Assembly: GCA_044892505.1 (NCBI GenBank)
Contig: CM097882.1
Location: 335,296,001-335,342,821, forward strand
Source of the DNA: Schmidtea nova
Taxonomy: Eukaryota
Direction: 5' to 3'
Length of the DNA: 46,821 nucleotides
Part shown: piece after piece, positions 1,493-36,090 of the stretch
How the letters are laid out: each line of letters begins with the position of its first letter
Position numbering within the stretch: the first letter of the stretch is position 1
Made by a program: the position numbers and the translations under genes
Notes under the pieces: generated by a model
What the model saw: the letters and a program-made list of their open reading frames with translations, nothing else
The model's database searches: none
What the model was told of the DNA's origin: nothing

Positions 1493-3015
1493 ATGTCACA
1501 AAAAGTATTCAAAGAGTTCAGCACCGGTGCACGAGTAGATGAAAATTCTGTGTGGTTTTATTTTCTGCGTGATAAAGAAAATCAACTTGCAAAGTGTAAG
1601 AAATGCGGCAAAGAATTAAAAACTCATGGTGGCAGTACCAGTGGACTCCATACACATCTAAGAACAAACCATGAAATCGACTTGCGAAAGAGAAAATCGA
1701 CCCAGGACACAGCAGCGTCATCGGCTTCGTTGTCATCGGCAAAAAACCCAAACCTCTGATAACAGATTTCTTCTAAAATCAACATGACAAGTCGTTGCCT
1801 GCAGTTTTTTATAGAATGACCGCCCTTGACGGACTGCCCTTCAGCGTATTTTCCACATCAGTTGAACTGATAACATCGCTACAAGCTCGTGGGTTTGTTG
1901 TTCCGAAATCGGAGACGACAATTCGAAATATGGTAGTCAAATACGCAAACACAATCAAAGAGACGGTCATATCCAAGTTCTCTCGTCTCCGATCGCAAGA
2001 GATGCGATTCAGTTTGGCATTTGATGAGTGGACGTCAAGAAAAAATCGCAGATATTTAAATGTAAACGTTCACATTGAGGACGAATTTTGGAGCCTTGGA
2101 TTAGCTAGAGTTGTTAGTTCACTGACTGCTGAAAAATGCATTGGGTTAGTTCAAAAAGTTTTGACGCAGTTTATGCTGAATTACGATGAAGACATTGTGT
2201 GCATTACTACTGATGGAGCTTCCCTAATGCATTAAGTGGGATGTTTAAGAAATTGTAATCAACAGTTATGCTTTATGCATGGTATTCAACTGGGTGTGCA
2301 AGAAACCGTCAATTTCATGCAAAGCAATCTTGAAAGGAATCTTCAATGACGAGAATAGCAGTGAAAGTGACGATGATACGACCACTGACGATGACGCAAA
2401 CATATCCAATGATGATGAAGAAGACTTTTCTGACAGGTTTCAAGTTGTTATGAGTGAGAAGGACGAAACTATTGAACTGACTGATGATTTGCAGCCGTTA
2501 ATCGCTAAGGTGCGTACCGTTGTAAAATTGTTTCGCTGTTCTCCGACAAAAAATGATAAAACGCTCGAAAAGTACACAGTAGACGAATTTGGTAAAGCAT
2601 TTTCACTAATACTCGACTCCAAAACTCGTTGGAGTAGCTTGCACACAATGCTCGAACATCTCATGAAATTGAAAAATTGCATTCGGAAGTCACTGATTGA
2701 CCTTGACTCTAAAATTAAGATAACTGATAAGGAGTTTGACACAATTTCATCTGTTGTGGCATGTCTCGCGCCAGTGAAACTAGCCGTGGATGCAACACTG
2801 TTGTCAGCCGATACAACACTTTTGTTTATGGTAAATAACCTTGGAGACACGGAATTAGCTGAGTTGGTGCGACGAATAAATGAGCGACGGACAAATTTTT
2901 CTAGCTTACTGCACTATCTACACAACGGCCATCAACGATATGAGAATTTAGATCCAGCGCTGTCATTTGAGCACCTTAGCAAATCAGTCATTGTAAACGC
3001 CATAGTTCGACTGAA
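1493..3015 (+). pseudogene. Decayed BED-finger hAT transposase, 3'-truncated
   Basis: BED finger (VWFYF..CKKC..H...H), FDEWTS (first catalytic D), ITTDGAS (second D), QQLCFMH (CxxH) and KTRWSS. Broken by frameshifts and stops near 1750, 1775, 2233 and 2310. The catalytic E/dimerisation domain is missing because the frame runs into ORF-Y at about 3016. Confidence 0.9.
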
Positions 3016-3478
3016 TGAGCGGTTTAGTCCAGCGCAAATGAAAGAGCAGATAACAGAGACTCAACGAGCCCAGAGAGCGGGTGAAGAATATCGATTAGAG
3101 CTCGAAGCTACCAAAATCGAATTACGGAAATGCTTGCGTTCCTTCACCACCGATTTCATTGAAACTGAATTAAAAAGTCTAATCCGACCAGTCACCTATC
3201 AATACTGGTCGCCGGGAAAATGTTCAGGATGTTCGGTAGGAACCGATACCGATGGGTTATCTCGAACCACAGAAGTCACAACAATACCAACCCCGACCAT
3301 GAAAATAGTTACAACAACCGAAAACAATAAGAAAAAGAAGAAAAATAAAATGGGTTCACGGCAAAGGAGATCGAATAAAGTAATTAATCCAGTCGATGAT
3401 ATGTCTGAGATAGCAGAAATAGATTTGTCTATGGAATTTGTACCTATAGATGACGATTTCCTGAAATTCTTCGAATAA
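3016..3478 (+). CDS. ORF-Y copy A (unknown coiled-coil/NLS/acidic-tail protein), fused in frame to the hAT remnant
   Basis: FSPAQMKEQ..LELEATKIELRKCLRSFTTDFIETELKSLIRPVTYQYWSP aligns by eye with copies at 10253, 21410 and 37158. AATAAA at 3474-3479 overlaps the stop. Confidence 0.6.
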
Positions 3479-3794
3479 ATCTCGATATATATAATTAACT
3501 GATATTTAAAAAATGGCGTTTGTGAAAATATAGTTTTATTCTCTATATTTATTTCTTATTTTTTTGTGTAATATAAAGTAAAATAATTAATAGATTCAAA
3601 CTTGTTTTATAAAGTATAAAATATTCTCGTAACAAGGTATACAAAATTAATAATAATTAAAAATTTAAGGAACATTAGGAGTATAAAGCAAAATATATAT
3701 TAATGATACGTTTTGCCTGTTGATATTGTAAGGGGCAGTAGGGATAAAATGAAAGATAATGCTTTCAATGAAGTAAAGTGAAATTAAAGCGTAA

Positions 3795-3928
3795 GTCCTT
3801 CTATCGGCAGCAAGGAACCCGCGAACATAAATGGGGAGTAGTTCTAGAAATAGAGCTCACTTGCCCATCATTGTTCAAACACCTTGCACATTTCCAACTC
3901 GACTATCCAGGGAAATATTCGAGGGTGC
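3795..3928 (+). ncRNA. Conserved two-hairpin structured element, copy A
   Basis: CCTTCTATCGG..GAACCC, then hairpin 1 (GGGGAGTAGTTCT/AGAGCTCACTTGCCC), then hairpin 2 (GCAC-ATTT-CC-AAC-TCGA..TCGA-GG-GTGC). The unit ends ..aaacccagca at 4012. Confidence 0.6.
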
Positions 3929-4013
3929 TTGTGTGTAGCGTAAGCATTTTATGCATGGGTATGGATAGAGGCGTCCCTAGAATGTTTTAATTTAACCCGT
4001 CCAAACCCAGCAT

Positions 4014-4499: not shown

Positions 4500-5000
4500 C
4501 ACCGCTCTTCGAGTAATCATTTACGAGCTTTTATACGTTTGACTTTTCGACCGATTTTTCGAGTTCTTTCGTAGTGAAGTAGAGATGACGTTTATTGAGC
4601 GAAGGCGATTGACGAGACGAATGAATATTTCCTATTCATTTTTATTATGTTCGCATCTTTATGTAGTTATCAGAATCATACCATTTGATGTAAATAAATA
4701 TAAATACGATACTATAAATAAAATATTCATTTGTGTCATTGAATACCATATCGCATTTCAAAAAAATGTAATAGGATTCTAGACGTTAATTATTTTGAAC
4801 AGACCTTGCGCTTGGCCAATCCACTACTCCTAATATATCCAGGTATGAGATGAAGCGTTTTTGGATGTATTTGCTCACTTCGATGAAAAAATGGATCAGA
4901 ACGCTGAAAGGACTCCAGCGAAATAATGATTCACCAAAGTGGCTAATGACGGTACAACGACTAAACAAATTGAGAAATGAGCATTAACAAGAAAAAGCAC
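4500..5000 (-). pseudogene. Decayed pair of overlapping unknown ORFs (a/b), copy 1
   Basis: Homologous to 30130-30510. Frame b SDPFFH..HPKTLHLIPGYIRSSGLAKRKV matches HPNSLHLIPDYMRSSG*AKCKV with several third-position changes. Frame a ends PSLATLVNHYFAGVLSAF*, matching PSLVT*VNHQLAGVCSAF*. Confidence 0.55.
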
Positions 5001-5253
5001 AATTAAAACAAAAATAAAAAAATGAAAAAGCGAGAAAAATGACAAAGATGTGAAATTTGAGTAAAAGTTAATAAATAAAAAGAATAAAAGAATAATTATG
5101 AAATTAATAAGAAAAATAATAAAATAATAATGAATAAAACCTAGGATAATAAAATAAATTATTAGGAAAATCGAGCTTTTAACCAATAAAAAGGTTACTC
5201 GATTCTGATTGGCTGCCTGAACGTCGATTTTACTATAAGGAAGCGCTCAGGTC

Positions 5254-7871
5254 CAGCGCCGGCTCTAGCGGTACTATCACCCCGATGCAAGTTTCTGTTT
5301 AGCGCCCTGAATAAAAAAATATATCAACAAACTCAAATACAAATTAAACTATATTGATTATTGTATATTATTTGAAATTAAACATTTATTTGTTATCAAT
5401 TGTAATTAACAGATATCAATTATGCATAAAATAAATTGCACGATGAATTCAAAATTTTATTTTTCTTGCTTTTATCGAAGCAAATTCATCCAAAATATCA
5501 TTAATTTTTATTTCTTCGCAGATATCGCTTTCAATTGCAATCATTGCCAACCCAACTAATTTCTCTTGAGAAATACTTGATCGCAAATATGTCTTAATTA
5601 GTTTAAGTCTAGAAAATGATCTTTCGCCACTTGCGACAGAAACTGGTAGAGTTAATAGTATCCGCAAAGATATTGTTAAATTTGGAAATATCCCAAATAA
5701 ATCATTTGTATATATATACTGTAAATTATTTAAGGGATCATAATTGTTTAGTAGCGTTATTGTATCTTTAAATATAAACAGTTCATTATATAACTCCGAA
5801 GAATTTATGTCTATTTCTTCACCATCAGTTAATACAGTTTGTAAATCGGTACATTTAATTTTCATTACTTCATCACCCAAATTATAAATTTCATTAAAAT
5901 TTATAAGAAATTGAAACTTTTCAGCATGACTATTCAGAAGTTCGAATCTCTCTATTAAGGAGTTAATTGCACTGTCCACAATTGGAAGAAAGAATGAAAT
6001 TTTATAGTTCTGTTCCGGGTCTCTCGGCCTCTCATCACTACATTCGTAATTAAACATACGTTTTTTACGCCGTCGTAGTGGATTTTCTTTAAATTGAGGA
6101 CAAATATCTACATCTTCTGCCAAGGTTACAGCTTTTTTTATTATATTGTTAAAATTGTCATCTAAGTGGAATTCTTTAAAAAAAGTTATTAAATTATTTA
6201 AATATTTTGTTGATTCATTTAGGTTGGTACTTGAAGATTGGAACATTTTGCTCACAACATTAATTCTGCTTAAAATCTCGTACCAAATTATTAGCGAACA
6301 AATAAATTCGTAGTCAAGCATCATTGCTAAAGATTTAGCTTCAGATTTTGTATTATTGTCATTATTTTCATTATCGTATATGGCAAGTAAAGCATCTAAA
6401 TAATCTCCAATATTGTTTCTTAATGGGCTAAGTGCTTCAATTCTTGATTCCCACCGAGTATCCGATAAAGGTTTGAGCGTAATTTTACTAAATTGTTTTA
6501 ACACATCCCAACGTTTTGTTGAAGCACTGAAAAAATTGTAAAGTTCTTGTATAATACCAAAAAAAATTATAGTTTCTGTATTAACTTTCGCCGCATCACT
6601 GACCACTAAATTCAAGGTGTGAGTCGCACATGGAACAAAGAATGCTCGTGGATTCTCATTCAAAATACGTCTTTGAACACCGCTATGCTTACCGCGCATA
6701 TTAGCACCATTATCATATCCCTGTCCACGTAAATGTTTTATATTTAAATCTAATTCTTTTAGTTTTTCAACTATGCATCTGAGCAAACCTTAGCCAGTAG
6801 AATCATTTATTTCTACGAAACCCAAGAAATGTTCTTCTACGGTAATCTGGTTGCTTTCATTTTTGTGGACAAATCTGACAATTACAGTCGTTTGTTCAGT
6901 GTGACTTATGTCGGGAGTACAATCCAATATTATGGAAAAATATTTGGCATTACTTACCCTCTGGATAATAGCATTCACACATTTTTTTGAAATTAAAGAT
7001 ATTATTTCATTTTGGATATTTTTTCCTAAATAATGAACGGTTTCTTTTTGTATGTTCTGAATTTTCGCGAGATGAGTTTCCATTACAATATCAAATTTAG
7101 AAAATAGTTCAACTAATTTTAAAAAATTACCATTGTTTTTCTGAAAAATTATATCTGACGAGCCGCGAAGAGCTAAATTTTGTTTAGCGAGATATTTTAT
7201 TATTTCAACAATTCTTTCTAACACACTACGCCAATGTCGTTTTTCCCTTTCATATACCTTTTCAAGTTCACTATCTATTGTGGTATGTTTCTCCAACTGT
7301 TTTTTTAGTTGAACCCATTTTATAAACGATGTTAAATGTGATCTACTTACTTCATGGAAACTTAATGTCTTTGATAAATTTTGCCAATTTGAGAAACCAT
7401 CTGTTGTTAAATGACTTTTTTCACCTGCAAATAATTTGCAACAAGAACAGAATACGCAGTTTTTAGAAGATGAATATTTGAGCCACGTTCGTGAAACAGT
7501 TTCATTATTTGCTATCTTACGATAATAATAATTATTACTAAAACTACGACCAGAATCATCTCGTGGATATAATTTATTTTTTATCTGTACCATCGCACCT
7601 TGCTCAATAATAACTTTTCGTATTTTGTCATTAATAATTTCCGGCCAAGTGGCTGGATCATTTGAATTAAATGAACTAAAATCTTCACTTGCTGTTTCGC
7701 TTACTTGCACTGTATTTTCTGTTTGTTGTGGTGAAGATAAATTATATTCAGAAGTTGACATGTTTTCTTAAAAATTGAAAAAAGTGGATAATCACTTTTC
7801 GATTTCAGCGCCCTTTTAGAGTGGCGCCCCGATGCCGTGCATCTTCTGCTTCCACTGTTGAGCCGGACCTG
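5254..7871 (-). mobile_element. Full-length hAT transposon (ZMYM1-like/DUF4371-type transposase), 2618 bp
   Basis: TIRs cagcgccggctc / gagccggacctg. Perfect 8-bp TSD ctcaggtc at 5246-5253 and 7872-7879. Confidence 0.95.
5449..7761 (-). pseudogene. hAT transposase split by one in-frame TAA (6790-6792)
   Basis: The 323-aa and 445-aa ORFs are in the same frame (..DSTG*GLLRCIVEKL). Motifs IILDCTPD, GQGYDNGANM, VPCATHTLNL, SDTRWESR and VASGERSFSRLK are all present. Confidence 0.93.
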
Positions 7872-8109
7872 CTCAGGTCAGTCAATTTATTGTCATTTAC
7901 ACCCATAGAAAAGGTCAATTTTCACTACAAATCACTGTTATTCATACTAAACATATTTCGGAAAACATCAACAACACTCGTAGGAAGACTTAGCTGAAAT
8001 TTGTGACCAATCTGAACGGAACAACTCTGTAAGTAGTTTGTTATAATAAATAAAAATTTTATAATCTAATCACGTTTCGTTTTGCCTATGATTATTTGAA
8101 TATATATAA

Positions 8110-8460
8110 TGCGAGAGTTTGGCGATCCCGTTGATTGTCATCTCTCCGGGTGATCTCTTTTTGTTTCGTGCCTCGGCACGGGGCATAAGATAGGTTGCTC
8201 CGTAAAGACCTTTTATTGCATTGGTAGTAGATAGAGAGTGAATGTCGAAAGGCGGTAGTAAGGCTCCAAATGCTTAAATTCATTATTGATGATATACAAT
8301 GACGAATGCCGAAAGAGTTAAATCACAAGTTCTAATGATATCAATGGCGATCGCGACCATTGCGGATTTTTGATAAGATGAGAACCTGTGAGACAGGAAC
8401 TAGATTGTGAAATTCCTGGTTCACGAATTCAACCCTAAATTAACAAAACTTGCGTAGAAA
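8110..8460 (-). pseudogene. Decayed unknown coding segment (c), copy 1
   Basis: Patchy homology to 32040-32420: gagaacc..ttcacg..ttcaaccc blocks, and NKKRSPGEM vs IENRPGEK on the minus strand. Confidence 0.35.
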
Positions 8461-9366
8461 GAATGCGCGACTAAATGAGAATTGTCCAGTGGGCGAGCGT
8501 TACCCACGATTCCCAGAACCGATTAGGTAAACCTCTATCGACTGAATTCAAATTTTCGTTGAATATCGATTGATTATTCCACCATAACAAGTGTAATATT
8601 TTTCTCAGTATTTGTTCAGGAAGGAATCGAATTTTTCTAAATTAACCAAACCCAACCCATTTGCTTCCCGCTATCAAAAATCCACACCAAAATTATGTAC
8701 ATAGATTACATAATTCAAATGACGGTGAGCGACGATTTCAGTAACAATTCCAACATGCATTGAATATGCGTAACCAGTCGTAGGGAGTAGATTACAACTC
8801 GTCAGATAAACATGCAGAAATCAAGATAAGGGCTAGGGTGGAATTGCCATCGATTCCAAGCATCACGATTTGACTAACGATTAAAATGTAAAAGGGAGCT
8901 AATTACCGGAAGGGTAATTAGTAAGCACAGCCATTTTTTCAGCAATTAGGGGCGCGACATCGCAATTAGACCGTCAATCATACAAACCTAATTCGAGATA
9001 ATTACCGATTTGCAGACAAGGATGACAATTGGCCATAGACCGATGATAATTAAATTCGCAAATTAAAATATAATTAGACAGAACTAAATATCATGGCACC
9101 CAAATATTAATAATGAAAGACAAATTGGGAAATTCGGGAACTCCGGGCTAATAAATTATCCACGCGTGATTTTCATAAAACGATGGTAAACGGAACATCC
9201 ATAAATATTATATCGCTAAAAGGTTCTAAGTGGGTAGCGGAGGTGCGCGACGGAAGCATGTGGTTGTTGCAATATATATATCCAAGTATGTATAACATTT
9301 AAATATGTAGATCCAGATCAAGCATGTTTCACCGGACTACAAATCACGGGCTCACGAGGAGAGTCG

Positions 9367-9786
9367 ATGGCGGTGAAAGATCGTACTGACGAGGCAAGGC
9401 AATATGATACGCATTTGATGATGCTCATGCCGCTCAAACCGATCCCAACTGAGTTGGCAAATGAGATACTCCAAGAGCACAAGGAAGAATTCGAGAGGAC
9501 TGGGATTGCCCCTCCGTTAAGTTTGTTCCGGGACAGTCCCTCGGACATTATTTGGCACGGCAGCAAGGAGTGGCCGATCGATGTGGATCGCCCTTACTGG
9601 CCCAACCAGGCGAGATATTTCGTAGAAACTCCCACCGAAATTCCCGGGAGGTTTCAAATATACTACCAAGGTGAGATTCCGCAGAAAGAGTTTCTGGGTA
9701 CGGGACGATTTGTGTTCGCACCCGCACCAACGCCAAGCCCGACAGACTCGCCGTTCAGTCCCTCGACGCTCAGCGAGGCCGATTGA
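9367..9786 (+). CDS. ORF-X, intact 139-aa unknown protein
   Basis: GC-rich open frame in an AT-rich background. The C-terminal YYQGEIPQKEFLGTGRFVFAPA has a diverged homolog at 22291-22396 (QYQGTIQTAEFLKTGRFVFNPA). Confidence 0.6.
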   Translation: MAVKDRTDEARQYDTHLMMLMPLKPIPTELANEILQEHKEEFERTGIAPPLSLFRDSPSDIIWHGSKEWPIDVDRPYWPNQARYFVETPTEIPGRFQIYYQGEIPQKEFLGTGRFVFAPAPTPSPTDSPFSPSTLSEAD

Positions 9787-10252
9787 AGTGATAGTGAGGT
9801 CGAAATCCTCGATGAATATTTTGAAATGTGAACTATCGAAGCGTCGTTGTAATTAATTATATGTTCCGTCGCGTTTCTTTGACTGCTTATTTTGAATTAA
9901 AACTTGGTGTAATTAAATAAAAATCACAACAATACAATGATAAATAAGTCGGTGAATAACCGAAAATAAATTCAGTAACAAAAATAGGGGCAACACAGTA
10001 GCGTTGTGCATGAATAGGAATTGTCGTAGCCAAGCAAAAGCATAGTAGAAGGAAAATGTCGTATGCAATACACCGGTACCAGTTATATAAACGTCCAGGA
10101 ACTAGGTAAAGGAGAGTAGCTACCACCCGAGAAGCACAAATAGGTAGAGTAAAACTCATAGGAACCGAGTAAGAGTCGTGTAGGAATCCCTCGCTTGGTG
10201 ATTAAAACTAAACTGATAATTACGAATATGTTTCTATCTTCCAGTAGGGACA

Positions 10253-10688
10253 ATGGCCACTACGGAAAAGACAATTGGACAGTTGAAGAGAAGAATCATG
10301 GACATTGAAAGTAGTTACTTCTCGCCGACGGAAATAAAGAAGGTAAAGGAAAACTTGATCAGGGCGACGCAAGTTATACAGGACCAGAGAAAGGAGATAG
10401 ACGCCTTGAAAATTGAAGAACTGCAGATCGTTCATCACAGAGAAGTTCATAACCGAAAATCTTCAAAGATTAATTCGTCCGATAACCTTGGAAAAGTGGT
10501 TTCCCACACCAGATCCATCGACGAGTACCGAAATAGAGACGACAAAAATGCAACCGACGAAGCGAAAACGAAGGAAATTGCATGCGCAACGCCGACAACA
10601 ATTGAAGTTGAGGATGGAGATCGACGCCAACAAATTGGTTATTGATGCAAACATTTCCAGAACGAATGACTCTAAATGCCAAGACTAA
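10253..10688 (+). pseudogene. ORF-Y copy B with one frameshift near 10413
   Basis: QLKRRIMDIESSYFSPTEIKK..DALKIE / LKNCRSFITEKFITENLQRLIRPITLEKWFP..KRKRRK. A pyrimidine-rich acceptor tttctatcttccag precedes the ATG. AATAAA at 10763-10768. Confidence 0.7.
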
Positions 10689-10932
10689 TTGTAATGTTAT
10701 GTGAACAAATATATGTATTTAAAAGAAATGTGTTGTTGTTGATTGGATGAGATCTAAGTTAAAATAAAGCAATAAGGCAAAGTAATCTTCAGTTTCATTG
10801 ACTTGTAAAACAGTAAGGAATAATGTAGTTAATAGGAATTATTAAAGTAGTAGGCCGAAGGGTAAGATATGAAATAGGAAGAGAACACCCAAAAAGAGAG
10901 ACCTAAACGCAGGGTGAGAAGAGTTATAACGA

Positions 10933-11072
10933 GACCTTCTATCGGTCAAGCTAGAACCCAAACGATGCGACAAGTCAGGAGTAGTTCTTGTAAAGGAGCT
11001 CACCTGCTGACTTGCGATCGGCTGTTATACACAGTTCCAACGTGAATGATTAGGGTAATTCACGGGTGTATG
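10933..11072 (+). ncRNA. Structured element, copy B
   Basis: GACCTTCTATCGGTC..GAACCC; CAAGTCAG..AGTTCT/GGAGCT..CTGACTTG; ATACAC-AGTT-CC-AAC-GTGAAT..ATTCAC-GG-GTGTAT. Confidence 0.65.
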
Positions 11073-11717
11073 AGCAGTTAAGTTTTTATGTGTGTCTTGG
11101 ACCCTAGAGAGCAAGGAAGAAAAATTTAGAAAGAGAAAGTCAGAAAGTCAATTCAGAGTTTGAATTTTGAACACAACGCACCAACAATTTGTTTGGAACG
11201 ACTCATGTGACACTGCTAATGATATGCGCTTATTCGCATTTGATGATTGACAATTTAGTCAATGGATTTTCAATGACAATTTCTAGAAAGTTATGTAATG
11301 ATATTATGACAAATATGTTTGGGTTTTTCGTCGGAAGTAGTCCACTAATTATATTTTATTCATTGGGTTTTGTTTATTTCTTCTCTCAAGCCTTGATTAA
11401 CTGGCCTGGATCAAACATGTATATGTAAATTAATTTTCTAATTTTCAAAAAAAAATAAATTACAAAATTTCTTAATATTTACAAAATTTTATAATTAACT
11501 AAATTAGAAATTTTATAAAGTTATACATTTATAAACTGATTTTTTACGATTATATAAAATAATAATTCCACTTTAATATTTATAAATTTTCCTAAAATAA
11601 TTCAATCCCGAATTTTATGAATTCGTACAATGGTCAAATTTTTCGATTTTATTATTTTCAATGTGGATCATAAGACATTTAAATGCATTTAAATTTTAAA
11701 TTTCATATGATTCGTAA

Positions 11718-11989: not shown

Positions 11990-14900
11990 GAATCCTAACA
12001 TAGCGACTACGCCAATGCTGCAGTTTATTAGACTCCCAGAAACATTCGAAATCAGCGATAACATAAAAAAAATTATCGAAGAAGCAGTTAAATCTTTTGA
12101 ACTTACTCAGACAGCTGAGGAACACAGGAGTTTTTATTAAAGCGTTTTTATCAATGAAAACGCGAAAGTTCGATGAAATGTATCTTGAAATTCATTACAA
12201 GATAAGAATCCACAATGCTTTTATAATCCACAATTGCTTCAACACAGCATGAAAAGAAAAATTATGCTAAGGCAGTGATGTTGAATGAAGGAGAAATATG
12301 GAACCAAAGAAAACCATATCATTGTCAAAAGAATGAAAGAATCGAACAAAGACGAACTGTTGGACGACTGGAAGCAAATGTTCAATGATCTGGAAATCGA
12401 AATGAGTAGGGAAAAACTAGATATCAAGGACAATTTCGAGAAGAACAGTGGCCCTCGAGACCTTTTAATGGATCGATTAGGAGAAATGTTTATCCAAACC
12501 AAGATTATCGCATGCGAAGATGCTGGGCTTGTAGAGAAGAAGGTCATCTAAGATCAGAATGCCCAAATGTCAAATAGCAACCATTGCCAAAAGAATAAAC
12601 ATTTCAAACACCAGTGTTATGAAGCTAGTCCACAAAGAAAGTTCCAGAGTTCTTAGTACATGACTGCTTTCGAGACAAGTGTGAACGATCGGTGGAAGGA
12701 GATGACCCAAACGATTTTGCAAAGACATCTGGAGAAGTGATCGGAGCCATAAGTTGAATGTAAGTGATATTTCGAACAATGTTTGTATGGATTTGAATGA
12801 TTGTAAATGTATGTATGATTTGAATACGAATGAATGTAATTTGAATATTGATGTATTTTGATAACAGTTTGAATGAACTTAATAATTATAATAATTATGA
12901 TTTATATAATTTAAATGAAAATAAATTAATTTTTAAGCCATATCGCCCTAGTAACGTTAAAAGGACTAATATTTACAATATAAAAGTGAAAAATCCTAAA
13001 GAATTTATTATTAATTATAACCATATGGGAGGAAAACCTAGTGTTTAAATTGAAATAAACAAAGAAAAAGCAATATGTATGCTTGATACAGGGGCAAAGA
13101 TAAGTGTTTTAGAAAACAAGATTTATAAAAGATTTGAAAACGTAACATAGGAGAAATGTAATATTGAAGTGAAATGTGCAAATGTCAATGGAATAATTGT
13201 AATGGGAAAGATAAATATAACTTTAACTGTAGGGACTATTTCAAAACCAAAAGAATTTGATGTTACTCGAGGAGTTTTTCCAAAAATAATTGGGGGTATA
13301 AATTTTGTAATGGAATTTAATATATATTTACAAAGAACAAATAGTGAGAAATATGAGATAGGTTATATTGAAAAAAGAAAGAGGATTTCAAAAAAATGGA
13401 AAGAGAAGACAAAGAAATCGAGAAATTGATTGAAGAATATGAAACGATATTTATGAAACATAAATGAGACATTGGTAAAACAGAAATAGTACAACATTAG
13501 ATAAATACGACAGGACCTCCAATTGTTATTAATCCAAGACGTCAACCAGTACACCTATTTTCGAAAGTAGAAGAAAATATTAAAGAGGTGGAAGAGAATG
13601 GTATTATAAAGAAATGTGAATCTACTTGGAATTCGCCAATGGTATGCATTAATAAGAAAGAGAAAGATGAGATAAGGATTTGCTTAGATTTTCGAGCATT
13701 AAATTTAGTAGCAGGGCGACATATTTTCCTATACCAAATACAGAAGAAAAGATGGACGCCCTTAATGGATGGAGATTTTTCACAACACTGGATTTACGCA
13801 GTTCATATTATCAAGTGGAGTTAACTGAAGATTCAAAAAATAAAACGGCATTTTCTACAAAGAATGAGCAATGCTGCTTCAATCGTATGCATTTGGAATA
13901 GCGGCGGCTCCTGCTACTTTCCAGAAATTTATGAGCAAAGTACTTGGATTACTAAATTGGAAAGAATCTGTAGTGTATCTTGATGACATCCTAATATTTT
14001 CAAATACTAAAGAGAAACACATGAAAAGCGTAAAAATGTTCTAGACAGAATTAAAACAGCTGGATTAAAGTTGAATCGAGAGAAATGTCAATTTCTGAAA
14101 TGTGAATATAAGTTTTTAGGTCATATCATAAATAAATATGGTATAAGAACGGATGATCGTAAAATTGATGCAATAAAACAGTTCCAAAGACTAAAATGTA
14201 TAAAGAGGTTGAGGAGTATTTTGAGACTAACGAATTATTATCGAAGATTCATTGAAAATTAAACATATTATTCTAAGAATTTGGAGAAACTATGTTGGAG
14301 TAATAAAAAAATTAATATGGACAGATGAATGTGAAATAGCGTTTCAAGGTATGAAAGAACAATTAATGAGAACTCCAATACTGGCTTTCACTGATTTTAA
14401 AAAAAGAATTTATATTAGATACTGATGCAAGCTTTGATAGAATAGGAGCGGTGTTATCACAATTAGATTAAAATAGAAATGAAAGAGTGATTTCGTATGG
14501 ATCGTGTGCGATGAGTACACACGAATTAGGGTATTGCATCACTAGAAAAGAATTACTTGCAATTTATTATTTTACGTTACATTTTAAACATTATTTATAT
14601 GGGAAGCGATTTAGACTCCGAACGGATCACAAGGCAATAACATTTATGTAGGGTTGTTAAACGAGCAACGGTTAACCGGTTTCCGGTTTTCGTACTTACG
14701 AACCGGAAACCGTTTCCCCAAATATTCGGATGTTATATTTAGTTTTTTTTTCAAAAAAATAATTATTCATTATTCATTAGTATAAAAACAGTTAATAATT
14801 ATAAACAATATTTAATATATTATGAAATTTATATCAACGTTCCCTCTAAGCGCAAAATTTTCTTTGCGGGCAAGATTTTTGAAATGCAAGAATGTGTCTG

Positions 14901-16060
14901 AGTGGGAGAGCGCATATAAAATCTTGTATTTCAAAAATCTTGCTCACAAATCACTTAGGAAAAATAATTTATGTGACTTCACAAAAGTCGTAAGTTATGA
15001 AAACTTATAACTAACATCAATTCAATTTTATATGGCATTTTAGTTTTTCAATTTTTATAAGATTAATGAAACAAGTAGTTTTAAAAAACTTTGTTTATTT
15101 TTATTTCGGATTTTTCGCAATGTTATTTTCTGAGTAATATAAGTACATTTATTTCTAGCGCACCACACTACCCCAGCGAGTACTGCGCACAGCCTAGAAG
15201 GAACATTGATTATAATGTCATATAATAATTATGAATATGATATTATTTAAAAGTTAAAATTAAAAGTTCAAAGCCACATATCGACAATATCAGCCAATAT
15301 CCAAATTCGCAATTGTTTCATTGATGCGGTGATTGCTTTCGTGGTAAAACTAGTAATGTAATTAAACGGATACTTCTTTCAAGCAAGGCCTACACGAAAG
15401 AGTCACATTTCGATTGGATATTTATTCTTGGGTCCCGCAATTAAGCGGTTTGGGAGTCCGATGGAAATCCGCCAGAAACCGATTCTCGGATCAAAAGTCT
15501 AGTCTGCTATGCAGTATGCCCCAGAGCATAGTCAAACCGATGACCGGTTTCAAACCGGTTTTTCAGAAACGGTTACCGGTTTCGTTAAAATTCGGTTTTA
15601 ACAACCCTACATTTATGCTTAAAACCAAGAAACATTTTACACCACAGTTTCAGACATGGATTAACCATCTTAGTAGTTTGGATATGGAATTAGAGTACAG
15701 GAAAGGTGAATTGCATGTAAATGCTGATGTTTTATCACGAAACAAATGTGGCACATACATACAGTGACAAACAATACACGAAGAACCAAAGAAAGGTAGG
15801 TTGAAGACAAGAATCCTAGCAATGATGCTAGGAGATGATGGTTCCATGTTGCAAAAGGATTATATAGAGGATGCTGATATAAGAGAAAAAATACTGAAAG
15901 GAGCAGAAATCAAAGTTAAAAATATTAATAATGTTATAGCAACAAACAAAAAGGAAATATGGACATCAAAGGAAAAGATAAGTCAATTCGTAGAACATAC
16001 TCATCAAACGTTATGCCATGCAGGAGCGAAGAAAGTACAAGATTATATTTCACAAATCGT
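11990..16060 (+). mobile_element. Decayed Ty3/Gypsy gag-pol remnant (Gypsy-1), integrase truncated
   Basis: gag-like region with a degenerate CCHC knuckle (~12590); protease LDTGAKISV (~13085); RT WNSPMVC, CLDFRALN and VYLDDILIF; RNase H DTDAS, ELLAI, TDHKA and NADVLSR; integrase H2C2 start (HQTLCHAG). Many stops and frameshifts. No matching LTR pair found. Confidence 0.9.
14649..15609. mobile_element. Non-autonomous hAT element (961 bp) inserted in Gypsy-1 RNase H
   Basis: TIRs tagggttgttaa / ttaacaacccta. Perfect 8-bp TSD catttatg (14641-14648, 15610-15617). Subterminal aaccgg/ccggtt repeats and an internal ~25-bp hairpin at 14866-14947. Removing it restores TDHKAITFM-LKTKK. Confidence 0.95.
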
Positions 16061-16199
16061 AATTTTATTTTTAATAACTCTATTTGTTTGGATTTGCATA
16101 AAAATGTGGATTATTCGCATCGAAGAAATGATTTTAGGTGAACTTCACAGATGAGTGCTTAGTGGGTAATATTGGCAAATTATTAGGTTTCTTGTTTCT

Positions 16200-18574: not shown

Positions 18575-19450
18575 TATTGGTGGGTTGTTGACCGTCAATA
18601 TGACCTTGACGTTGCTATGGTTCATATCAACAACTCAACATACAAAACATTAGATTAACCATTTTGTTGCCCGTCACAATGTAACGTTGGTAATTCAACA
18701 AATGGGTGGGTATTCGTTATCAGTGAGCGTCGAACATTCGAAACTATGATTGACCGAATATCTCCTGGGTACAAGGGCTACCGATAGAAGATTTAATGCC
18801 TATTTTCTCCTTTCTTCAAAAATCGATCTATAAGCATTCAATAATGTTTTAATTGGAATTTCAAAATAAATAATCTACATCAATATAAGATTATTATTGC
18901 ATCAAAATAACCCATTTTTCAACATCAAAACATCAATAATTCACGCAATGATCCATTTCAGGTACACATAACATAACAATAAACAGAATAAAATCAACAA
19001 AATCATTCGCTCAAAGAATAAAAAAAGTCCTTCGAGTTTTCGAGATGTTTTCGTACCTTACTGTCACCAAATTCTCGATTTTTCCGATCAAAATCTAAAA
19101 CATAATAAAATCAATGATTCCAATCAGCTGTTACACTTTACATTGAAAAAAACAAGCATATTCGCTTTTTAGGTTATTCCCAAGCTCATACTCAAACATA
19201 TCATCGCAACTCAATTCGGGATCAAATATTTCTTCAAAATTACACATCTTCGGGGTATACGATCGGGTTATTTTGGCCCAAAATACTATTATTTTCGTAA
19301 TTTTTCAAATTTTTGTGTTTTAAATATTTAAAATTTAAGTAATCTTTATTTATATCTATCTTGATTTGTTAAAATTATCTATAATTTATTAAAAATTTAG
19401 TATTATATTTTTTAACATATTGACGAGGCCCTAACAACGGGTAACGGTTG
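18575..19450 (-). mobile_element. LTR-like unit F' (inverted relative of unit F); structured element at 18664-18791
   Basis: The reverse complement aligns along 26778-27456. The coding remnant ELSCDDMFEYEL resembles the acidic ORF-Y tail. Confidence 0.75.
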
Positions 19451-20100: not shown

Positions 20101-21311
20101 ATTCGTCTTGAAATCATCACATCAGGGTCTTTGGAATTTTGCGAAATTTGTGTTAATAAAGATGGTAATAAATTTGAGTCGCTTTTTATTTAATTTTTTT
20201 ATGATGGTAAATTGTAATAAAACTTTTTATGAAATTCTTCTCTCAATTTAGTAAAGTTTTCATGCCGGATTTTTATTATGAGGCGAAATTAAAATTACTC
20301 AAACTTCATTAATTTAAATTTTTTATGTTATTTCGGATATCGAATTGGGTTACCGATTTCGATATTTAGGTGCATATTTCCATACTGGTGTTATAGTAAA
20401 ATATTATATTAAGATATTATAGTAAAATATTATATTCTCGTAACATAATAAATGATGCTATACGGGTACTACTAATAGCTTGAGAGCAAGGTGATAAGTT
20501 TATAGTGAACTACTAATGTAACAATAAGTGCAATAAGTTAAGGTTTCCATAAGATGATATAGTTGACCAGTAACATTATTAAAAGTCATAGGAGATATTT
20601 TTGCATATAAGGTTAAATTACTATTACTATAGGATGTTGTGATTCGTAGTTGTTTGTGACTGTATGTTGAATAGATTGTTGGGTGAAATAGGTAATTCAA
20701 TGATGGATGTGAATGCTTGTGCAAATTATGGATGTATGATTCTTAGATTCAGAATTTTTATACCTTTAAAATTAAATTCAGTTTTTCACATTATAGTGCA
20801 TTCAACAATAGGTTTTGGGGAATTTTTCGAATTTTTCGAACATTGAACTATACAATTATTGCTTTGCATGAAAAATGAATACATCTGGTGAGTTGCCTGA
20901 TCAATCGAATGGCTGGTGGAACTGCACCGTTTGGAGTACATCATCCTCGATTACTCTAGGAACATTCATACGGGAGAACAAATCGGATACCCAAACATAT
21001 CATGGAAGTTCCCGGATGCATGGCGGTCCCGATCCCAATGGTCATTAGGCATCAGATGACAGGATATCTTCCTGCACCAGGGATTTTTATGTTGGAGACC
21101 CAATTTGGCTTTTTACCAGACCAATGGAGTCCGACGGGATGATAGCGAATACTCCCAGGACTGGATTACCGAGTCTCAATAACCAAGCGTCCAAATGTAC
21201 AGTGTCACGAACTATCATGTGTTGTCATTTGTATTTACCTTTATTATAATTTAGTTTGAGTTAAAATTCTTTTTGCATGTTTGTTGGTTGTGATTAACAT
21301 GACTGAATGAG

Positions 21312-21938
21312 ATGCAGGTAACCCAAATGACTGAAGGGCAGAGGGGTGACTGTTGAATGACACAAATTTCTAACACTGATAGTAATATCACGAGTACCTG
21401 TCATTGTAGATAGACGAAATCAGCAAGCATGTCGATACCGATAGCCGTAGACAATTACAGAGACGCATTCGATTACTCGAAGGGGCGATAAACAGGCAGG
21501 CCGCCGAAATCGACGAAATCAGGAGGAGTTGGTTTAGTCCAGCAGTAGTAATGGAGATGACGAAGGGCAAAGATAGAATACATCGAGCACTCGACGAACA
21601 GTCCATGGAATTAGCTGTCACGAAGGTGGAATTAAATCGATGTTTGAAGACGGTCTCGGGTGACTTCATCAAGAGGCTGGGTTCCAACTCGAAGCACGAC
21701 GACGGGGACACAGACTGAGGATATACCATCGTTAGTAGAGACAGAGGGGGTCAAAACATCTTCCCCGATTGAAGTAACAGCGGTACTTTCCAAAACTATG
21801 AGAAACCGGTTAGGCGCAATGAGACGACGCAAGAGCAGGGCATTCGCCGAGAGGATGGGTATTGAGGTGGACTTATTAAGCGGCTTGGCGGAGAAGCAGT
21901 TGATCAATGTAATCAACACAAGCGTATTTTTAGGATAA
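21312..21938 (+). pseudogene. ORF-Y copy C, probably spliced, with one frameshift/deletion near 21680
   Basis: ATGCAG|gtaacc (21318)..ctaac..cattgtag|(21410) IDEISK..QLQRRIRLLE..SWFSPAVV..MELAVTKVELNRCLKTVSGDFIK, then GWVP..GTQTE..RRRKSR..EVDLLSGL*. AATAAA at 21938-21943. Confidence 0.65.
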
Positions 21939-22065
21939 ATAAATGTATTGATTTAGTTATGGTGGTTTTGATTTTCGTTGCTTCATCGTGGTTTGCATGA
22001 ATGGAAGTATGATGAATGCTTTAACTACTTAAATATCTATAAATGGAACCTAATGTAACTACTAA

Positions 22066-22210
22066 GACCTTCTATCGGTCAGAACGAACCCGTGGCATTG
22101 ATAGGGGAATAGTAACTACCTAAGTTGCTAACCTGCCCTATTGGTCTACACCGCTCAGTACATTACCAACATGAGGCGCAATTAGGGGCAAAACATGGGT
22201 ACTAGAGTGG
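22066..22210 (+). ncRNA. Structured element, copy C
   Basis: GACCTTCTATCGGTC..GAACCC; ATAGGG-GAA-TAGTAACT/AGTTGCTA-ACCTG-CCCTAT; AGTAC-ATTA-CC-AAC-ATG..CAT-GG-GTACT. Confidence 0.65.
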
Positions 22211-22290
22211 GTAATATTTTAGGTTGGCCAGGTGACCTTATCATTTCATCCAAGAACACCCGTGTTGAACATCAACAAGCACAACCAACA

Positions 22291-26149: not shown

Positions 26150-26289
26150 TATTTATATAAAAATAGTAATATTAAAAAATTATAAATATGAAATATTTGA
26201 GAAAATGCTGAACAAAATTTCACATTTTCTCTAGAAATAATATTGTTGAGCCAAAACTGCAAATTGTTTAAATGAAGCGGTAACTCAAT

Positions 26290-26600
26290 TAGTAGAGATC
26301 GCGCAAGATTCTAATTTAACCAAAGCATCAAGTAAAATTGAAGTAGTTAAGTGGAAACACACCTAAATATTAAAGTGGACAAGTAGAGAGCGCGCAAGAC
26401 TCTAATCTAAAGTCCCTTAATCAAAACATCAAGGAAAAATTAAAATGGTTAAAAGAAGCACGTCTAAAAAACTAGAATAGACAAAAAACACATCGAATAT
26501 GCACGTGGTGAACGCATTCATGATATAAAACCTCGGTTGTGGAAAATTAGCATGTTTACAGAAAGAAAATTACGATTTTATCTTAGAAAATTCGTAAAAA
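26290..26600 (+). repeat. AT-rich dispersed repeat family Z, arm 1
   Basis: The agagagcgcgcaag..aaacatcaag..aaaattaaaatg..atatgcacgtg block recurs at 31400-31660 (-), 33460-33670 (+) and 37880-38070 (-). Confidence 0.6.
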
Positions 26601-26777
26601 TATAAAAGAAAATGATAATGCTTTATAATTTTTTTAAACAAATTTTTCTCTATTCGCTAAAAATGGGTTTCAGTGAATAATCTTTAATATAAAAAATAAA
26701 GGAAGTTTCCTTTTAAACATAAATGGTCTTCAAATAGGTAAATGAAAGACATTAAAGCTTGTTTAAATATCCTACAT

Positions 26778-27456
26778 TGTAACCGTTACTGTTGTCAAGG
26801 CCTCGGTGATAATTTAAGATTTTAACGTTAAATTTTGATAAAAATTTAAATAGAAGTTTTAAAGCAAGATAGACAATAGGACTAGAACATAAATATAGTG
26901 TACCTAGATTTTTAACATTAAAAACATAATAATTTAGAAAAATCGCGAAAATAATAAAAATTCAGGTCTAAATAATGATAATTGAATATTCCCAAATATA
27001 TGTATTTTCTAAAGGAATAATTGGTCCTCGAATTGAGTTTGCGATGATATGCTTGAGTATGAGCTTACGAATAAAAATAAATGCGCGAAAACTCCTGTGC
27101 GTTTGGATAATACTATGTAAAATGATTAATTGGGAAAAGCTTAATAAATTTATATTGATGGAACTATTTATGTTTTCTTTTAAATTGAAATGAATATCCG
27201 TAGTAAAATTGTTGAAGAAGGGACGAAATGGGCAATAAACCTTCTATCGGTAGCCCTTGGACCCAGGAGATATTCGGTCAATCATAGCTTTGAATTTTCT
27301 ATGCTCACTGATTGCGAATACCGACCCATTTGTTGCATTACCAACGTTACATTGTGACGGGCAACAAGATGGTTAATCTAATGTTTTATGTGTTGAGTTG
27401 TTGATGTGAGCCATTGCAACGTCAAGGTCATATTGACGATCAACAACCCACCAATA
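26778..27456 (+). mobile_element. LTR-like unit F (~680 bp); structured element at 27239-27367
   Basis: Starts TGTAAC and ends ..caacaacccaccaata. Contains ACCTTCTATCGGT..GGACCC and TTGTTGC-ATTA-CC-AAC-GTTAC..GTGAC-GG-GCAACAA. Confidence 0.7.
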
Positions 27457-34613: not shown

Positions 34614-35608
34614 GCTTTATTTCATTATTTAAACATGTTAAATTTCATAGATGCGTCCTCTGTGGCGAAAGTCGCGAGGGCGTTTCCGTACGCGTAGGGC
34701 TTTTTAGCTCCACGATATGGTGAGGATTTATATAAAATTTTCATTCGAGGTTAGGCGAACAGGGTTGCACATGGATAGAAGGGAAACCATTAATGCGAAT
34801 TTTATATGACCAAGGGGAACTCGTATAGGAGGTAATGTAGCCGTCAAACCGGAATAACTTGGAAAATGAACTAGGGACGGAACGAACGGGTCCGACACAC
34901 AGAATCAAACTAATTTTGTTACTTATGCGAGGCAAGTCATAAAAGCAACGGAGCTAGTAGAAAAAAGTTATGGGGGATAATCGGCAGCCAATTCCACCCA
35001 AACCGTTTCGCAAGCATCTAATAAATTTTTAAAGTAATGGAATTAAAAACTGAACCACAGTTCGTAATCAATAGATGCAGGGCCAAAGCACAAGCAGCCT
35101 ACTGTATCTAAATAAATCCGAGACATACCGAATCGGATCTGGTCAGATGTTTAGTCAAGATCAATTTCGATGAAATTCTTAAATTAAAATTCCATCATTT
35201 AGAAAGATGTATGATCTAGAGGATACTATCACCACTCAATGGTTCAGAGAAGAGATGGCCGAAAAGCTGAGAAGGCCAAGTTTGAAGCATATCTTATGAG
35301 GGTTTTGGGGCCCCTGATAAATCTGCCGTCCCAATACATTCAGCAAATGAACAGGCAAATGAGAAAATGACACATCGAATTGCGGTCAAGGTGCCCGTTT
35401 TCAATCTGGGAAGGGAGAAATAAAGAAGTGTGGTATAGATGAAGCCTCAGATGGCCGATAATTCCGGATTCAGAGTACTCACCCCTATTCGCAGAATGGC
35501 TCATCTTTATTAAGGATGTCGAAATGTTTTCTCGTCATATATTATATTGAGGCTGTATTCCATCTCTAACGTTTGAAGAATTGGGTTTCTTGCTAATAGA
35601 CCCCGCCA

Positions 35609-36090
35609 GACTTCTACGACAGTGGTTCTCAAAGAGTGTTCCACGGAACACTGGTGTTCCGGCGATCACTTTCAAGTGTTCCGCGAAAAAATCAAATGTA
35701 CAATTCAATTAAAAATTGTTCGCAAATAAAAATCAATTCAATATAAAATTTTACGTACCATTCGGCTTTGTATAAATACAAACATAATGGAGTGTTTTTG
35801 CGAACATTATTCTATTTTTCTATTGTTCTTTTGATTTTATAAAGGTTAACTACCCGCGTCTCCTGTTTTAAAGTTTATGTTGTATTGTAGATGTTCCGCC
35901 TGAAAATGTATCAGAGTTTAGTGTTCCCCGACTTCAAAAAGTTTGAGAACTACTGCTCTACGAACCCGTATGGAAGGAGCACTCATCGAACCGGTCAAAG
36001 TAGACCCAAGGAAGTGCTCCATCCGAAGTCAGCTCCAAGTACATCGAGTGTTTTCATATAAATTGGCACTGTGCGTTGACTGAGCTTAGT
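35609..36090 (+). ncRNA. Divergent structured element interrupted by a MITE
   Basis: Removing the MITE gives GACTTCTACGAACCCG, then the GGAGCACT/AGTGCTCC and GTCAGC..TCCAAG..GTTGAC hairpins. A weakly ORF-Y-like remnant (QWFREEMAEK) lies upstream at ~35240. Confidence 0.4.
35620..35955. mobile_element. hAT (Charlie-like) MITE, 336 bp
   Basis: TIRs cagtggttctcaaa / tttgagaactactg. 8-bp TSD ttctacga / ctctacga (7/8 identical). Confidence 0.9.

What the first reader, a model, noticed from the sequence alone, without database searches (positions are those of the whole stretch)
21282..22290. ~1-kb TG..CA LTR-like units that carry their own mini-gene (ORF-Y)
Seen: unit C has a perfect 11-bp terminal inverted repeat (TGTTGGTTGTG..CACAACCAACA). 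Inside are an ATG 30 bp from the start, a candidate 92-nt intron, ORF-Y, AATAAA and the structured element. Unit B (10194-11186) has the same size and order. Units A and F end in related CCAGCA/CCAATA. Known: TG..CA ends with short inverted repeats are the integrase-recognised ends of LTRs, and LTR/U3-encoded accessory genes are known in some retroviruses (MMTV sag, HIV nef overlapping U3). Inference: these are solo or orphan LTRs of several diverged retroelement lineages, and each insertion delivers a self-contained gene cassette. No RT or integrase lies inside any unit.
Basis: partly seen in the sequence, partly recalled or inferred. Interest (0 to 1): 0.85.

Follow-up and report, generated by a model that had tools for sequence, protein, structure and literature searches.

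The report
Giant retroelement LTRs carry two genes
The "1-kb unit" is the decayed tail of a 3.2-kb end repeat (LTR) from giant Burro-like retrotransposons, and these LTRs carry two protein genes with no detected relatives, kept under purifying selection and likely spliced from the LTR's own promoter, so each lone LTR inserts with a whole gene cassette.

Summary
The 11-bp inverted arm at 21282 occurs in 1 of 113 copies, has no target-site duplication (TSD), and homology runs on upstream to 20918 and 20843.

Unit C is the broken 3' part of a 3.0-3.6 kb LTR (TGTTGG...CCAACA). 14 of 17 two-ended solo copies have a perfect 4-bp TSD. Six LTR pairs (98.7-100% identical, with TSDs) flank bodies in 25-46 kb elements, with a tRNA-Pro primer site. 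Bodies scanned run gag, fusion env, protease, RT, RNase H, integrase, ankyrin, TRAF/MATH, the layout described for planarian Burro elements; one lineage lacks RT-integrase.

Both LTRs carry two genes, ORF-X (~220 aa) and ORF-Y (~188 aa). dN/dS is 0.11-0.22, and no homologue was found. They sit behind a conserved CCAAT-TATA-initiator promoter, each with an acceptor-like AG and AATAAA, ahead of a covarying RNA element.

Splicing, the long-R model and a Rev/Rex-like role for ORF-Y are inferred; no RNA data were available. The two main Burro papers could not be read, so novelty is provisional. Verdict: new variant of a known kind.

The parts
20843..20914 (+). most upstream surviving LTR piece of unit C, followed by an internal deletion of about 530 bp; the promoter-bearing 5' ~1.5 kb is absent
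   Evidence: blastn to its closest copy, 89% identity
20918..22290 (+). continuous 3' part of a decayed solo LTR (the real extent of unit C)
   Evidence: 70-79% identity to full-length copies
20916..21182 (+). C-terminal third of ORF-X, stop TAA 21180-21182
   Evidence: profile match E 2.7e-28
21282..21292 (+). apparent 5' inverted-repeat arm; not a terminus
   Evidence: 1 of 113 copies, no TSD; deletion junction
21410..21938 (+). ORF-Y (~188 aa in intact copies); broken here: start codon reads ATA and there is a frameshift near 21674
   Evidence: alignment A1
21938..21943 (+). AATAAA; an AATAAA lies in this region upstream of the RNA element in many copies, including F-type units without ORF-Y
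22066..22290 (+). covarying RNA element: small hairpin, two stem-loops, 8-nt bulge, predicted TTAGGG/CCCTAA pseudoknot, and a stem pairing TGTTGG with the LTR end
   Evidence: no Rfam family
22285..22290 (+). true 3' LTR end CCAACA; not followed by a primer-binding site
4962..11186 (+). unit B: solo LTR of the B lineage (promoter 5206-5240, ORF-X 9238-9786, frameshifted ORF-Y 10238-10676), interrupted by a hAT element
5254..7871 (-). hAT-type DNA transposon with 8-bp TSD CTCAGGTC, inserted at the presumed start site of unit B
   Evidence: family name from recalled motifs, no profile run
3023..4012 (+). unit A: 3' remnant of an LTR (ORF-Y part and RNA element) related to the E4 lineage
26244..27453 (+). 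unit F: short LTR-like unit (TG..CA with ATAT on both sides in this copy only) with the RNA element and AATAAA but no detected ORF-X or ORF-Y; an inverted relative lies at 18578-19449
35242..37508 (+). further ORF-X (35242-35613) and ORF-Y (37155-37508) remnants of another LTR copy

Best explanation
Unit C is the broken 3' part of a lone 3.2-kb LTR from a family of giant Burro-like Gypsy retroelements whose LTRs encode two proteins, ORF-X and ORF-Y, under purifying selection, likely expressed from the LTR's own upstream promoter through a short non-coding first exon spliced to one or the other gene.

Shown: LTR identity, pairing around gag-env-pol bodies, TSDs, a tRNA-Pro primer site, both ORFs in both LTRs of three diverged recently mobile lineages, purifying selection, the conserved promoter, acceptor-like AG and AATAAA motifs, and covariation of the 3' RNA element.

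Inferred (about 0.7): spliced X and Y mRNAs, each ending at its own AATAAA.

Inferred (about 0.55): the element's full-length RNA starts at the same promoter and ends at the AATAAA after ORF-Y. This would put both genes in a repeated (R) region of about 2.4 kb and the folded RNA in U5, next to the primer site.

Inferred (about 0.3): ORF-Y (coiled coils, arginine-rich patch, leucine-rich tail) is an RNA-binding regulator working like Rev/Rex, letting unspliced RNA pass the LTR's splice and polyA signals.

Solo LTRs would arise by LTR-LTR recombination; they keep the whole cassette and then decay.
For: Termini and TSDs: 54 matches to the 5' 20-mer, control 0. Of 40 fetched, 17 had both ends clean; 14 have a perfect 4-bp TSD, 3 have one mismatch, and none is followed by a primer site.

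Pairs: 6 clean LTR pairs among 12 candidate regions, 98.7-100% identical, LTR 3.08-3.57 kb, element 25-46 kb. The primer site has 1,891 exact copies and matches the 3' end of the host tRNA-Pro(TGG) plus CCA. Pfam order is Gag, Monjiviricetes fusion, protease, RT, RNase H, integrase, ankyrin, then a TRAF/MATH ORF.

Selection: dN/dS is 0.11, 0.15 and 0.19 for Y and 0.22 and 0.15 for X in five sets. Shifted frames give 0.97-2.21, apart from the antisense frame that shares third positions. DNA-picked copies differ from unit C at codon positions 1/2/3 by 0.29/0.27/0.43 and 0.20/0.14/0.44.

Promoter: ATTGG-N15-34-TATA in 25 of 40 copies against 1.6 in shuffles, and also in three young lineages. AATAAA lies 150-180 nt before the RNA element in 61 of 121 copies and 130-200 nt before it in 22 of 23 F-type loci; a TATA box 30-60 nt before it in only 11 of 121.

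RNA element: 40 of 49 drawn pairs show two-sided changes, and 82% of cells pair against 33-40% for slid controls.

ORF-Y: WFxP-type motif 35 of 35, TQT 26 of 35, basic patch of 10-11 K/R in 20 residues in three lineages; long helices in the predicted model.
Against: No transcript evidence of any kind, so start site, splicing and polyA use are motif-level only.

The dN/dS sets were chosen by protein similarity and intact frame, which lowers dN. Only 27 of 190 pairs in the C group were unsaturated.

A donor-like motif follows the promoter in only 12 of 25 old copies and is weak in E4. A 2.4-kb R would need a first reverse-transcription product of about 2.8 kb and read-through of two polyA signals in the 5' LTR, which is unusual by general knowledge.

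The RNA structure was drawn by me from these same sequences; RNAalifold alone gave 7 pairs and single folds had z of -1.7 and -2.9.

TQT is absent from the B and E4 lineage ORF-Y proteins, and many TQT peptides do not bind LC8 (PMC6607443, passages). F-type units spread without a detected cassette.

Unit C's own sublineage was not found attached to a body (0 matches). The link is by homology of X, Y and the RNA element, and through one relative at 69% identity that follows a PPT and pol remnants.
Confidence: 0.7

Rival explanations
1. Two promoters: X and Y form an independent transcription unit wholly inside a 3-kb U3. The full-length RNA starts just before the folded element, which is R-U5, and its 3' end is made by the upstream AATAAA brought close by RNA folding, as in HTLV-1.
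For: It gives an ordinary first reverse-transcription product of about 230 nt. Some C-group copies, including unit C, have TATAAAT about 28 nt before the element. A U-rich TTTTTATGT tract lies about 75 nt from the end in most copies. There is precedent in HTLV-1 RxRE (PMC3434621, passages).
Against: TATAWAWR sits in that position in only 11 of 121 copies and is missing in Y44, E4 and B64. The U-rich tract is also explained as pairing with the LTR end. A GU-rich stretch directly follows the AATAAA, as at an ordinary polyA site.
Confidence: 0.3
2. Same anatomy, different job: X and/or Y are counter-defence proteins acting on host silencing, immunity or cell death, and they sit in the LTR so that any copy can supply them.
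For: X and Y are 23% and 32% identical between two lineages whose RT is 96% identical. The body carries RING, TRAF/MATH and ankyrin modules. Burro elements are piRNA targets (PMC8532177, passages), and Burro1 carries an anti-apoptotic module (PMC13465017, passages, second-hand).
Against: dN/dS is well below 1 in every set; no site-wise test for positive selection was run. The divergence may equally reflect old LTR lineages exchanged onto a shared pol.
Confidence: 0.3
3. The host selects the genes: solo LTRs are domesticated gene copies.
For: Many solo copies keep open frames; about 135 of the 150 best ORF-Y matches have no stop (my count).
Against: Those are best matches to a young copy. Old solos, including units A, B and C, are broken. 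dN/dS rises among close pairs, as expected from neutral decay after insertion.
Confidence: 0.05
4. One reading: a separate 1-kb unit bounded by an 11-bp inverted repeat, with its own ATG mini-exon; or a non-autonomous TG..CA DNA transposon.
For: The perfect arm, ATG and GT..AG are in unit C. None of the 54 pattern-picked 5' ends was paired.
Against: The arm occurs in 1 of 113 copies without a TSD, homology continues upstream, and homologous units flank gag-pol bodies as direct repeats.
Confidence: 0.02

Closest known systems
Burro giant Gypsy-like elements of planarians (Burro1/GYPSM1, Burro2-4)
   Same: About 30 kb; Gag with CCHC knuckles; a mononegavirus-like fusion env between gag and protease; ankyrin; MATH/TRAF; RING (PMC6431247 section 7, read whole).
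   Different: That section mentions no ORFs inside the LTRs. MATH/TRAF here is a separate ORF downstream of pol. BIR, BCL2, dUTPase and ubiquitin-like domains were not detected by Pfam in the frames scanned. One lineage lacks RT, RNase H and integrase. No direct sequence comparison was possible.
MMTV sag (LTR-encoded superantigen)
   Same: A protein gene encoded in the LTR and kept open in most proviruses (PMC11998498, passages).
   Different: sag is one type II membrane protein; here there are two genes, each with its own acceptor-like AG and AATAAA, in an invertebrate Gypsy-type element, with no detected homology.
HTLV Rex/RxRE and HIV Rev/RRE
   Same: A small protein with an arginine-rich stretch and a predicted oligomerisation region, next to a structured LTR RNA of about 230 nt (PMC3434621, passages).
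   Different: No sequence or fold similarity was found; Rex and Rev are encoded outside the LTR; RNA binding and export are untested here.
Foamy virus LTR polyA control
   Same: A splice donor upstream of the polyA signal inside the LTR, with U1 binding suppressing 5' LTR cleavage (PMC3694450, abstract). This is a precedent for the long-R model.
   Different: The foamy R region is short and holds no complete genes (general knowledge).
Ogre elements of plants
   Same: Multi-kilobase LTRs (1.9-6.5 kb) and extra ORFs (PMC6431247).
   Different: The extra ORFs are described in the internal region, not in the LTR.

Membership tests
Ty3/Gypsy LTR (solo LTR) | TG..CA ends with short inverted repeat and TSD | tested here: met
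   TGTTGG..CCA(A/G)CA; 14 of 17 perfect 4-bp TSDs. Unit C itself has lost its 5' end.
Ty3/Gypsy LTR (solo LTR) | near-identical direct pairs flanking gag-pol | tested here: met
   6 clean pairs of 12 candidate regions; none from unit C's own sublineage
Ty3/Gypsy LTR (solo LTR) | tRNA primer-binding site after the 5' LTR | tested here: met
   19-nt match to host tRNA-Pro(TGG) plus CCA
Ty3/Gypsy LTR (solo LTR) | polypurine tract before the 3' LTR | tested here: inconclusive
   a conserved GGGG(A/T)CCCCGAGTG tract abuts the 3' LTR in 330 places but is not a pure purine run
Ty3/Gypsy LTR (solo LTR) | domain order PR-RT-RH-IN | tested here: met
Burro | giant size, about 30 kb | tested here: met
   25.1-31.3 kb, and 46.2 kb in one copy with nested insertions
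Burro | fusion-type env between gag and protease in the polyprotein | tested here: met
   PF24664 directly before RVP in one frame
Burro | ankyrin and MATH/TRAF domains | tested here: met
   MATH/TRAF is in a separate downstream ORF
Burro | BIR plus RING (B-IAP), BCL2-like, dUTPase-like and ubiquitin-like motifs | tested here: inconclusive
   RING found after the primer site; the others not detected by Pfam in the frames scanned; the review used HHpred, and short frames were not scanned
Burro | sequence or RT-tree placement with Burro1-4 | not testable with these tools
   no Burro sequence was available from a tool
1-kb unit bounded by an inverted repeat (reader) | shared 5' terminus at 21282 with TSD | tested here: not met
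Rev/Rex-type export protein (ORF-Y) | arginine-rich motif | tested here: met
   10-11 K/R in 20 residues in three lineages; motif only
Rev/Rex-type export protein (ORF-Y) | leucine-rich export signal and oligomerisation | tested here: inconclusive
   leucine-rich tail in most lineages but altered in B; long helices predicted, pTM 0.33
Rev/Rex-type export protein (ORF-Y) | binds the element's RNA and exports unspliced RNA | not testable with these tools
   needs experiment

The most novel reading that the evidence does not exclude
A virus-like planarian retroelement has placed a complete two-gene regulatory unit of new protein families inside a 2.4-kb R region of its LTR, with ORF-Y working as an independently evolved Rev/Rex on a pseudoknotted LTR RNA. 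Thousands of solo LTRs and an RT-less lineage would then be scattered, promoter-bearing sources of these proteins acting in trans on the family and possibly on host cells.
Probability: 0.25. Interest if true: 0.85.

Novelty: new variant of a known kind. Interest (0 to 1): 0.62.

Why it matters
LTRs are usually treated as non-coding and solo LTRs as regulatory leftovers. Here the LTR holds two selected genes with their promoter, so recombination that deletes the element body leaves the cassette whole, probably in thousands of places (8,983 and 3,414 first-look candidates, not copy numbers).

Burro elements are reported to be active, piRNA-controlled and, second-hand, involved in planarian stem-cell survival. 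Two unrecognised Burro-type proteins and a covarying LTR RNA would be directly testable by RNA mapping and RNAi. The layout also raises a concrete question: how does such an element pass its own splice and polyA signals to make a genome-length RNA?

Tried and rejected
Homology searches for X and Y found nothing usable:
- Pfam: nothing above cut-off.
- 5.8-billion-protein search: 0 hits for one Y, one X and the 35-sequence Y alignment, at near lengths only.
- 1.84-billion representatives with the X profile: 0 hits.
- Atlas: X scored 0.97 to phage portal clusters but recognition was 1749, under the tool's 2300 mark, so rejected; Y best 0.80.
- Folds: the X model is low-confidence (pLDDT 50), best Z 4.0; no viral match for X or Y. 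These blanks do not show the folds are new.

RNA and reads:
- Rfam: no family.
- No RNA holder listed.
- Four runs of unknown kind were laid as contigs. Depth peaks at the LTR ends cannot be interpreted, and the listed joints (15 of 18 shown) were not GT..AG at the predicted sites.
- Search for a retro-copied splice junction: 0 matches, uninformative.

Other dead ends:
- C-sublineage LTR end next to a primer site: 0 matches.
- Candidate pairs rejected as tandem or segmental duplications: 3. One pair had altered ends; two regions had a single 3' LTR with body remnants.
- Dropped before the TSD count: 23 of 40 copies (20 with no same-strand 3' end found, plus L067, L080 and L101 as ambiguous). 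L096's mutated end was placed by hand.
- My early reading as a 5'-truncated LINE/Penelope tail or a TG..CA DNA transposon was dropped.
- A loose promoter pattern was uninformative (37 of 40 against 20 shuffled) and was replaced by the strict one.
- The IQ-TREE omega was not captured.
- F-type 5' ends were not resolved.

Literature: Grohme 2018 and Lee 2026 were not held. Searches for LTR-encoded ORFs gave no Burro case; two hits read as passages were irrelevant. Earlier scan findings: none.

Full report
Observation. Unit C belongs to a dispersed family in the 1.25-Gb genome G000 (919 first-look candidates, 40 scored). The copies share a sharp 3' end, CCAACA, but not a 5' end at 21282. 10 of 29 loci remain homologous upstream of it, and the alignment shows the arm at a deletion private to this copy. 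The perfect 11-nt arm occurs in 1 of 113 copies, without a TSD. The ATG at 21312 with its donor is kept in about 3 of the 9 closest copies. The stable feature is an acceptor AG right before ORF-Y's own ATG. In unit C that codon reads ATA and the frame shifts near 21674.

True unit. Longer flanks put the shared 5' end 3.1-3.5 kb upstream of the 3' end, at TGTTGGGCC. A 20-mer from it has 54 matches, control 0. I fetched 40; 17 had both ends clean, 14 with a perfect 4-bp TSD and 3 with one mismatch, none followed by a primer site. Their longer versions are explained by nested insertions where checked by ORF content. Unit C keeps 20843-20914 and 20918-22290 and has lost the promoter end. Unit B reaches back to at least 4962, with a hAT element inserted at its presumed start site.

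Parent element. Protein searches gave 8,983 first-look candidates for ORF-Y and 3,414 for a second gene, ORF-X, with many same-strand pairs about 21-28 kb apart. Of 12 candidate regions, 6 are clean LTR pairs, 98.7-100% identical, with TSDs TTTT, CCTG, GAAG, ATAG, CTCT and TATA. Three were duplications, one had altered ends and two had a single 3' LTR with body remnants. The 5' LTR is followed after 6 nt by a site complementary to host tRNA-Pro(TGG) plus CCA, with 1,891 exact copies. Pfam gives Gag, Monjiviricetes-type fusion protein, protease, RT, RNase H, integrase and ankyrin, then a RING-TRAF-MATH ORF; one lineage has a RING ORF after the primer site. This matches the description of planarian Burro elements (PMC6431247, section 7 read whole), except for the position of MATH/TRAF and several motifs Pfam did not detect. 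Unit C's own sublineage appears to survive as solos. A relative at 69% identity follows a PPT and pol remnants.

The LTR genes. Both LTRs of three diverged, recently mobile lineages (Y44, E4, B64) carry open X and Y frames. Pairwise dN/dS is 0.11-0.19 for Y (27, 20 and 10 sequences) and 0.15-0.22 for X (27 and 18). Other frames give about 1 or more, apart from the antisense frame sharing third positions. These sets were chosen by protein similarity, but the 29 DNA-chosen loci also differ from unit C most at third positions. Between Y44 and E4, RT is 96% identical while X is 23% and Y 32%. No homologue or fold match was found; the X model was poor. Y is predicted as two long helices around a WFxP motif, a low-confidence linker with TQT (26 of 35), a basic patch and a leucine-rich tail.

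Signals. A CTGATTGG box, TATA box and TCAGT-like initiator sit 330-510 nt into the LTR in 25 of 40 copies, against 1.6 in shuffles, and in all three young lineages. A donor-like motif follows in 12 of 25. X and Y each have an AG shortly before the first ATG and an AATAAA within 200 nt after the stop in the three young lineages. The AATAAA 150-180 nt before the RNA element is found in 61 of 121 copies, and at 130-200 nt in 22 of 23 F-type loci, which show no X or Y. A TATA box next to the element is found in 11 of 121. The last ~230 nt match no Rfam family. A 49-pair structure that I drew from these sequences has two-sided changes at 40 pairs and 82% pairing, against 33-40% for slid controls. 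It includes a predicted TTAGGG/CCCTAA pseudoknot and a stem closing on the LTR end. RNAalifold alone found only 7 pairs.

Mechanism. The most economical reading is one promoter, a short first exon spliced to either gene, and the AATAAA after Y as the element's 3'-end signal. That places both genes in a long R and the folded RNA in U5 beside the primer site; foamy viruses give a precedent for a donor suppressing 5' LTR polyadenylation (PMC3694450, abstract). The rival puts the genes in U3 with a second, mostly TATA-less start site and HTLV-like long-range polyadenylation (PMC3434621, passages). Either way unspliced RNA must pass these signals, which is why I rank a Rev/Rex-like role first for Y, level with counter-defence. 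None of this is shown: no RNA run was listed and the laid contigs could not decide it.

Novelty. Burro elements and LTR-encoded genes (MMTV sag; PMC11998498, passages) are each known. A two-gene cassette with its own promoter wholly inside a Gypsy-type LTR did not turn up in my searches. Grohme 2018 and Lee 2026 and their supplements could not be read and may describe it. Papers seen as passages only: PMC11410931, PMC8532177, PMC13238120, PMC13465017, PMC10558129, PMC6607443, PMC6884822, PMC6673714 and bioRxiv 2025.09.22.674508. Verdict: new variant of a known kind, interest 0.62.

Noticed in passing
L198-L200 (G000:C2:64.52-64.545 Mb) and L201-L203: Both B-lineage bodies examined lack a 2.9-kb stretch holding RT, RNase H and integrase, with the frame staying open across the gap, yet their LTRs are 99.9% and 99.2% identical: likely a recently mobile non-autonomous giant lineage that keeps gag, env, protease and X/Y.
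   Followed up: partly
L232-L235 versus L204-L207: RT 96%, integrase 90% and env 85% identical, but X 23% and Y 32%: either fast LTR-gene evolution or exchange of old LTR types on a shared pol.
   Followed up: partly
window 26244-27453 and 18578-19449; L236-L260: F-type units (4,613 first-look candidates) share the RNA element and AATAAA but show no X or Y within 2.2 kb of the 3' end; 5' ends and parent element unresolved.
   Followed up: partly
L192-L197 (G000:C1:459.6 Mb): Tandem array of tRNA-Pro(TGG) genes with a 308-bp period; 1,102 matches to the motif genome-wide.
   Followed up: no
window 22182-22187 and downstream: The predicted pseudoknot pairs TTAGGG with CCCTAA, the telomeric hexamer as I recall it; possibly coincidence.
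   Followed up: no
L111-L115: 5.5-kb tandem duplications of LTR fragments next to a 505-aa ORF with RING-like cysteine motifs, and a Polinton-like insertion; both named by eye.
   Followed up: no
L200:2493-3182; L206:7161-7688: A small ORF with a hydrophobic C-terminal stretch lies just before the 3' LTR in two lineages; weak Pfam hits only.
   Followed up: no
window 1777-3478, 5449-7767, 13399-16154, 43189-45514: Other decayed transposons by eye: two hAT-like transposases and two Gypsy pol remnants; unit A's ORF-Y is joined in frame to a transposase fragment, apparently by chance.
   Followed up: no
L031-L033: 6.4-kb tandem duplication, GIY-YIG-like ORFs and a long protease-bearing ORF, by eye.
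   Followed up: no
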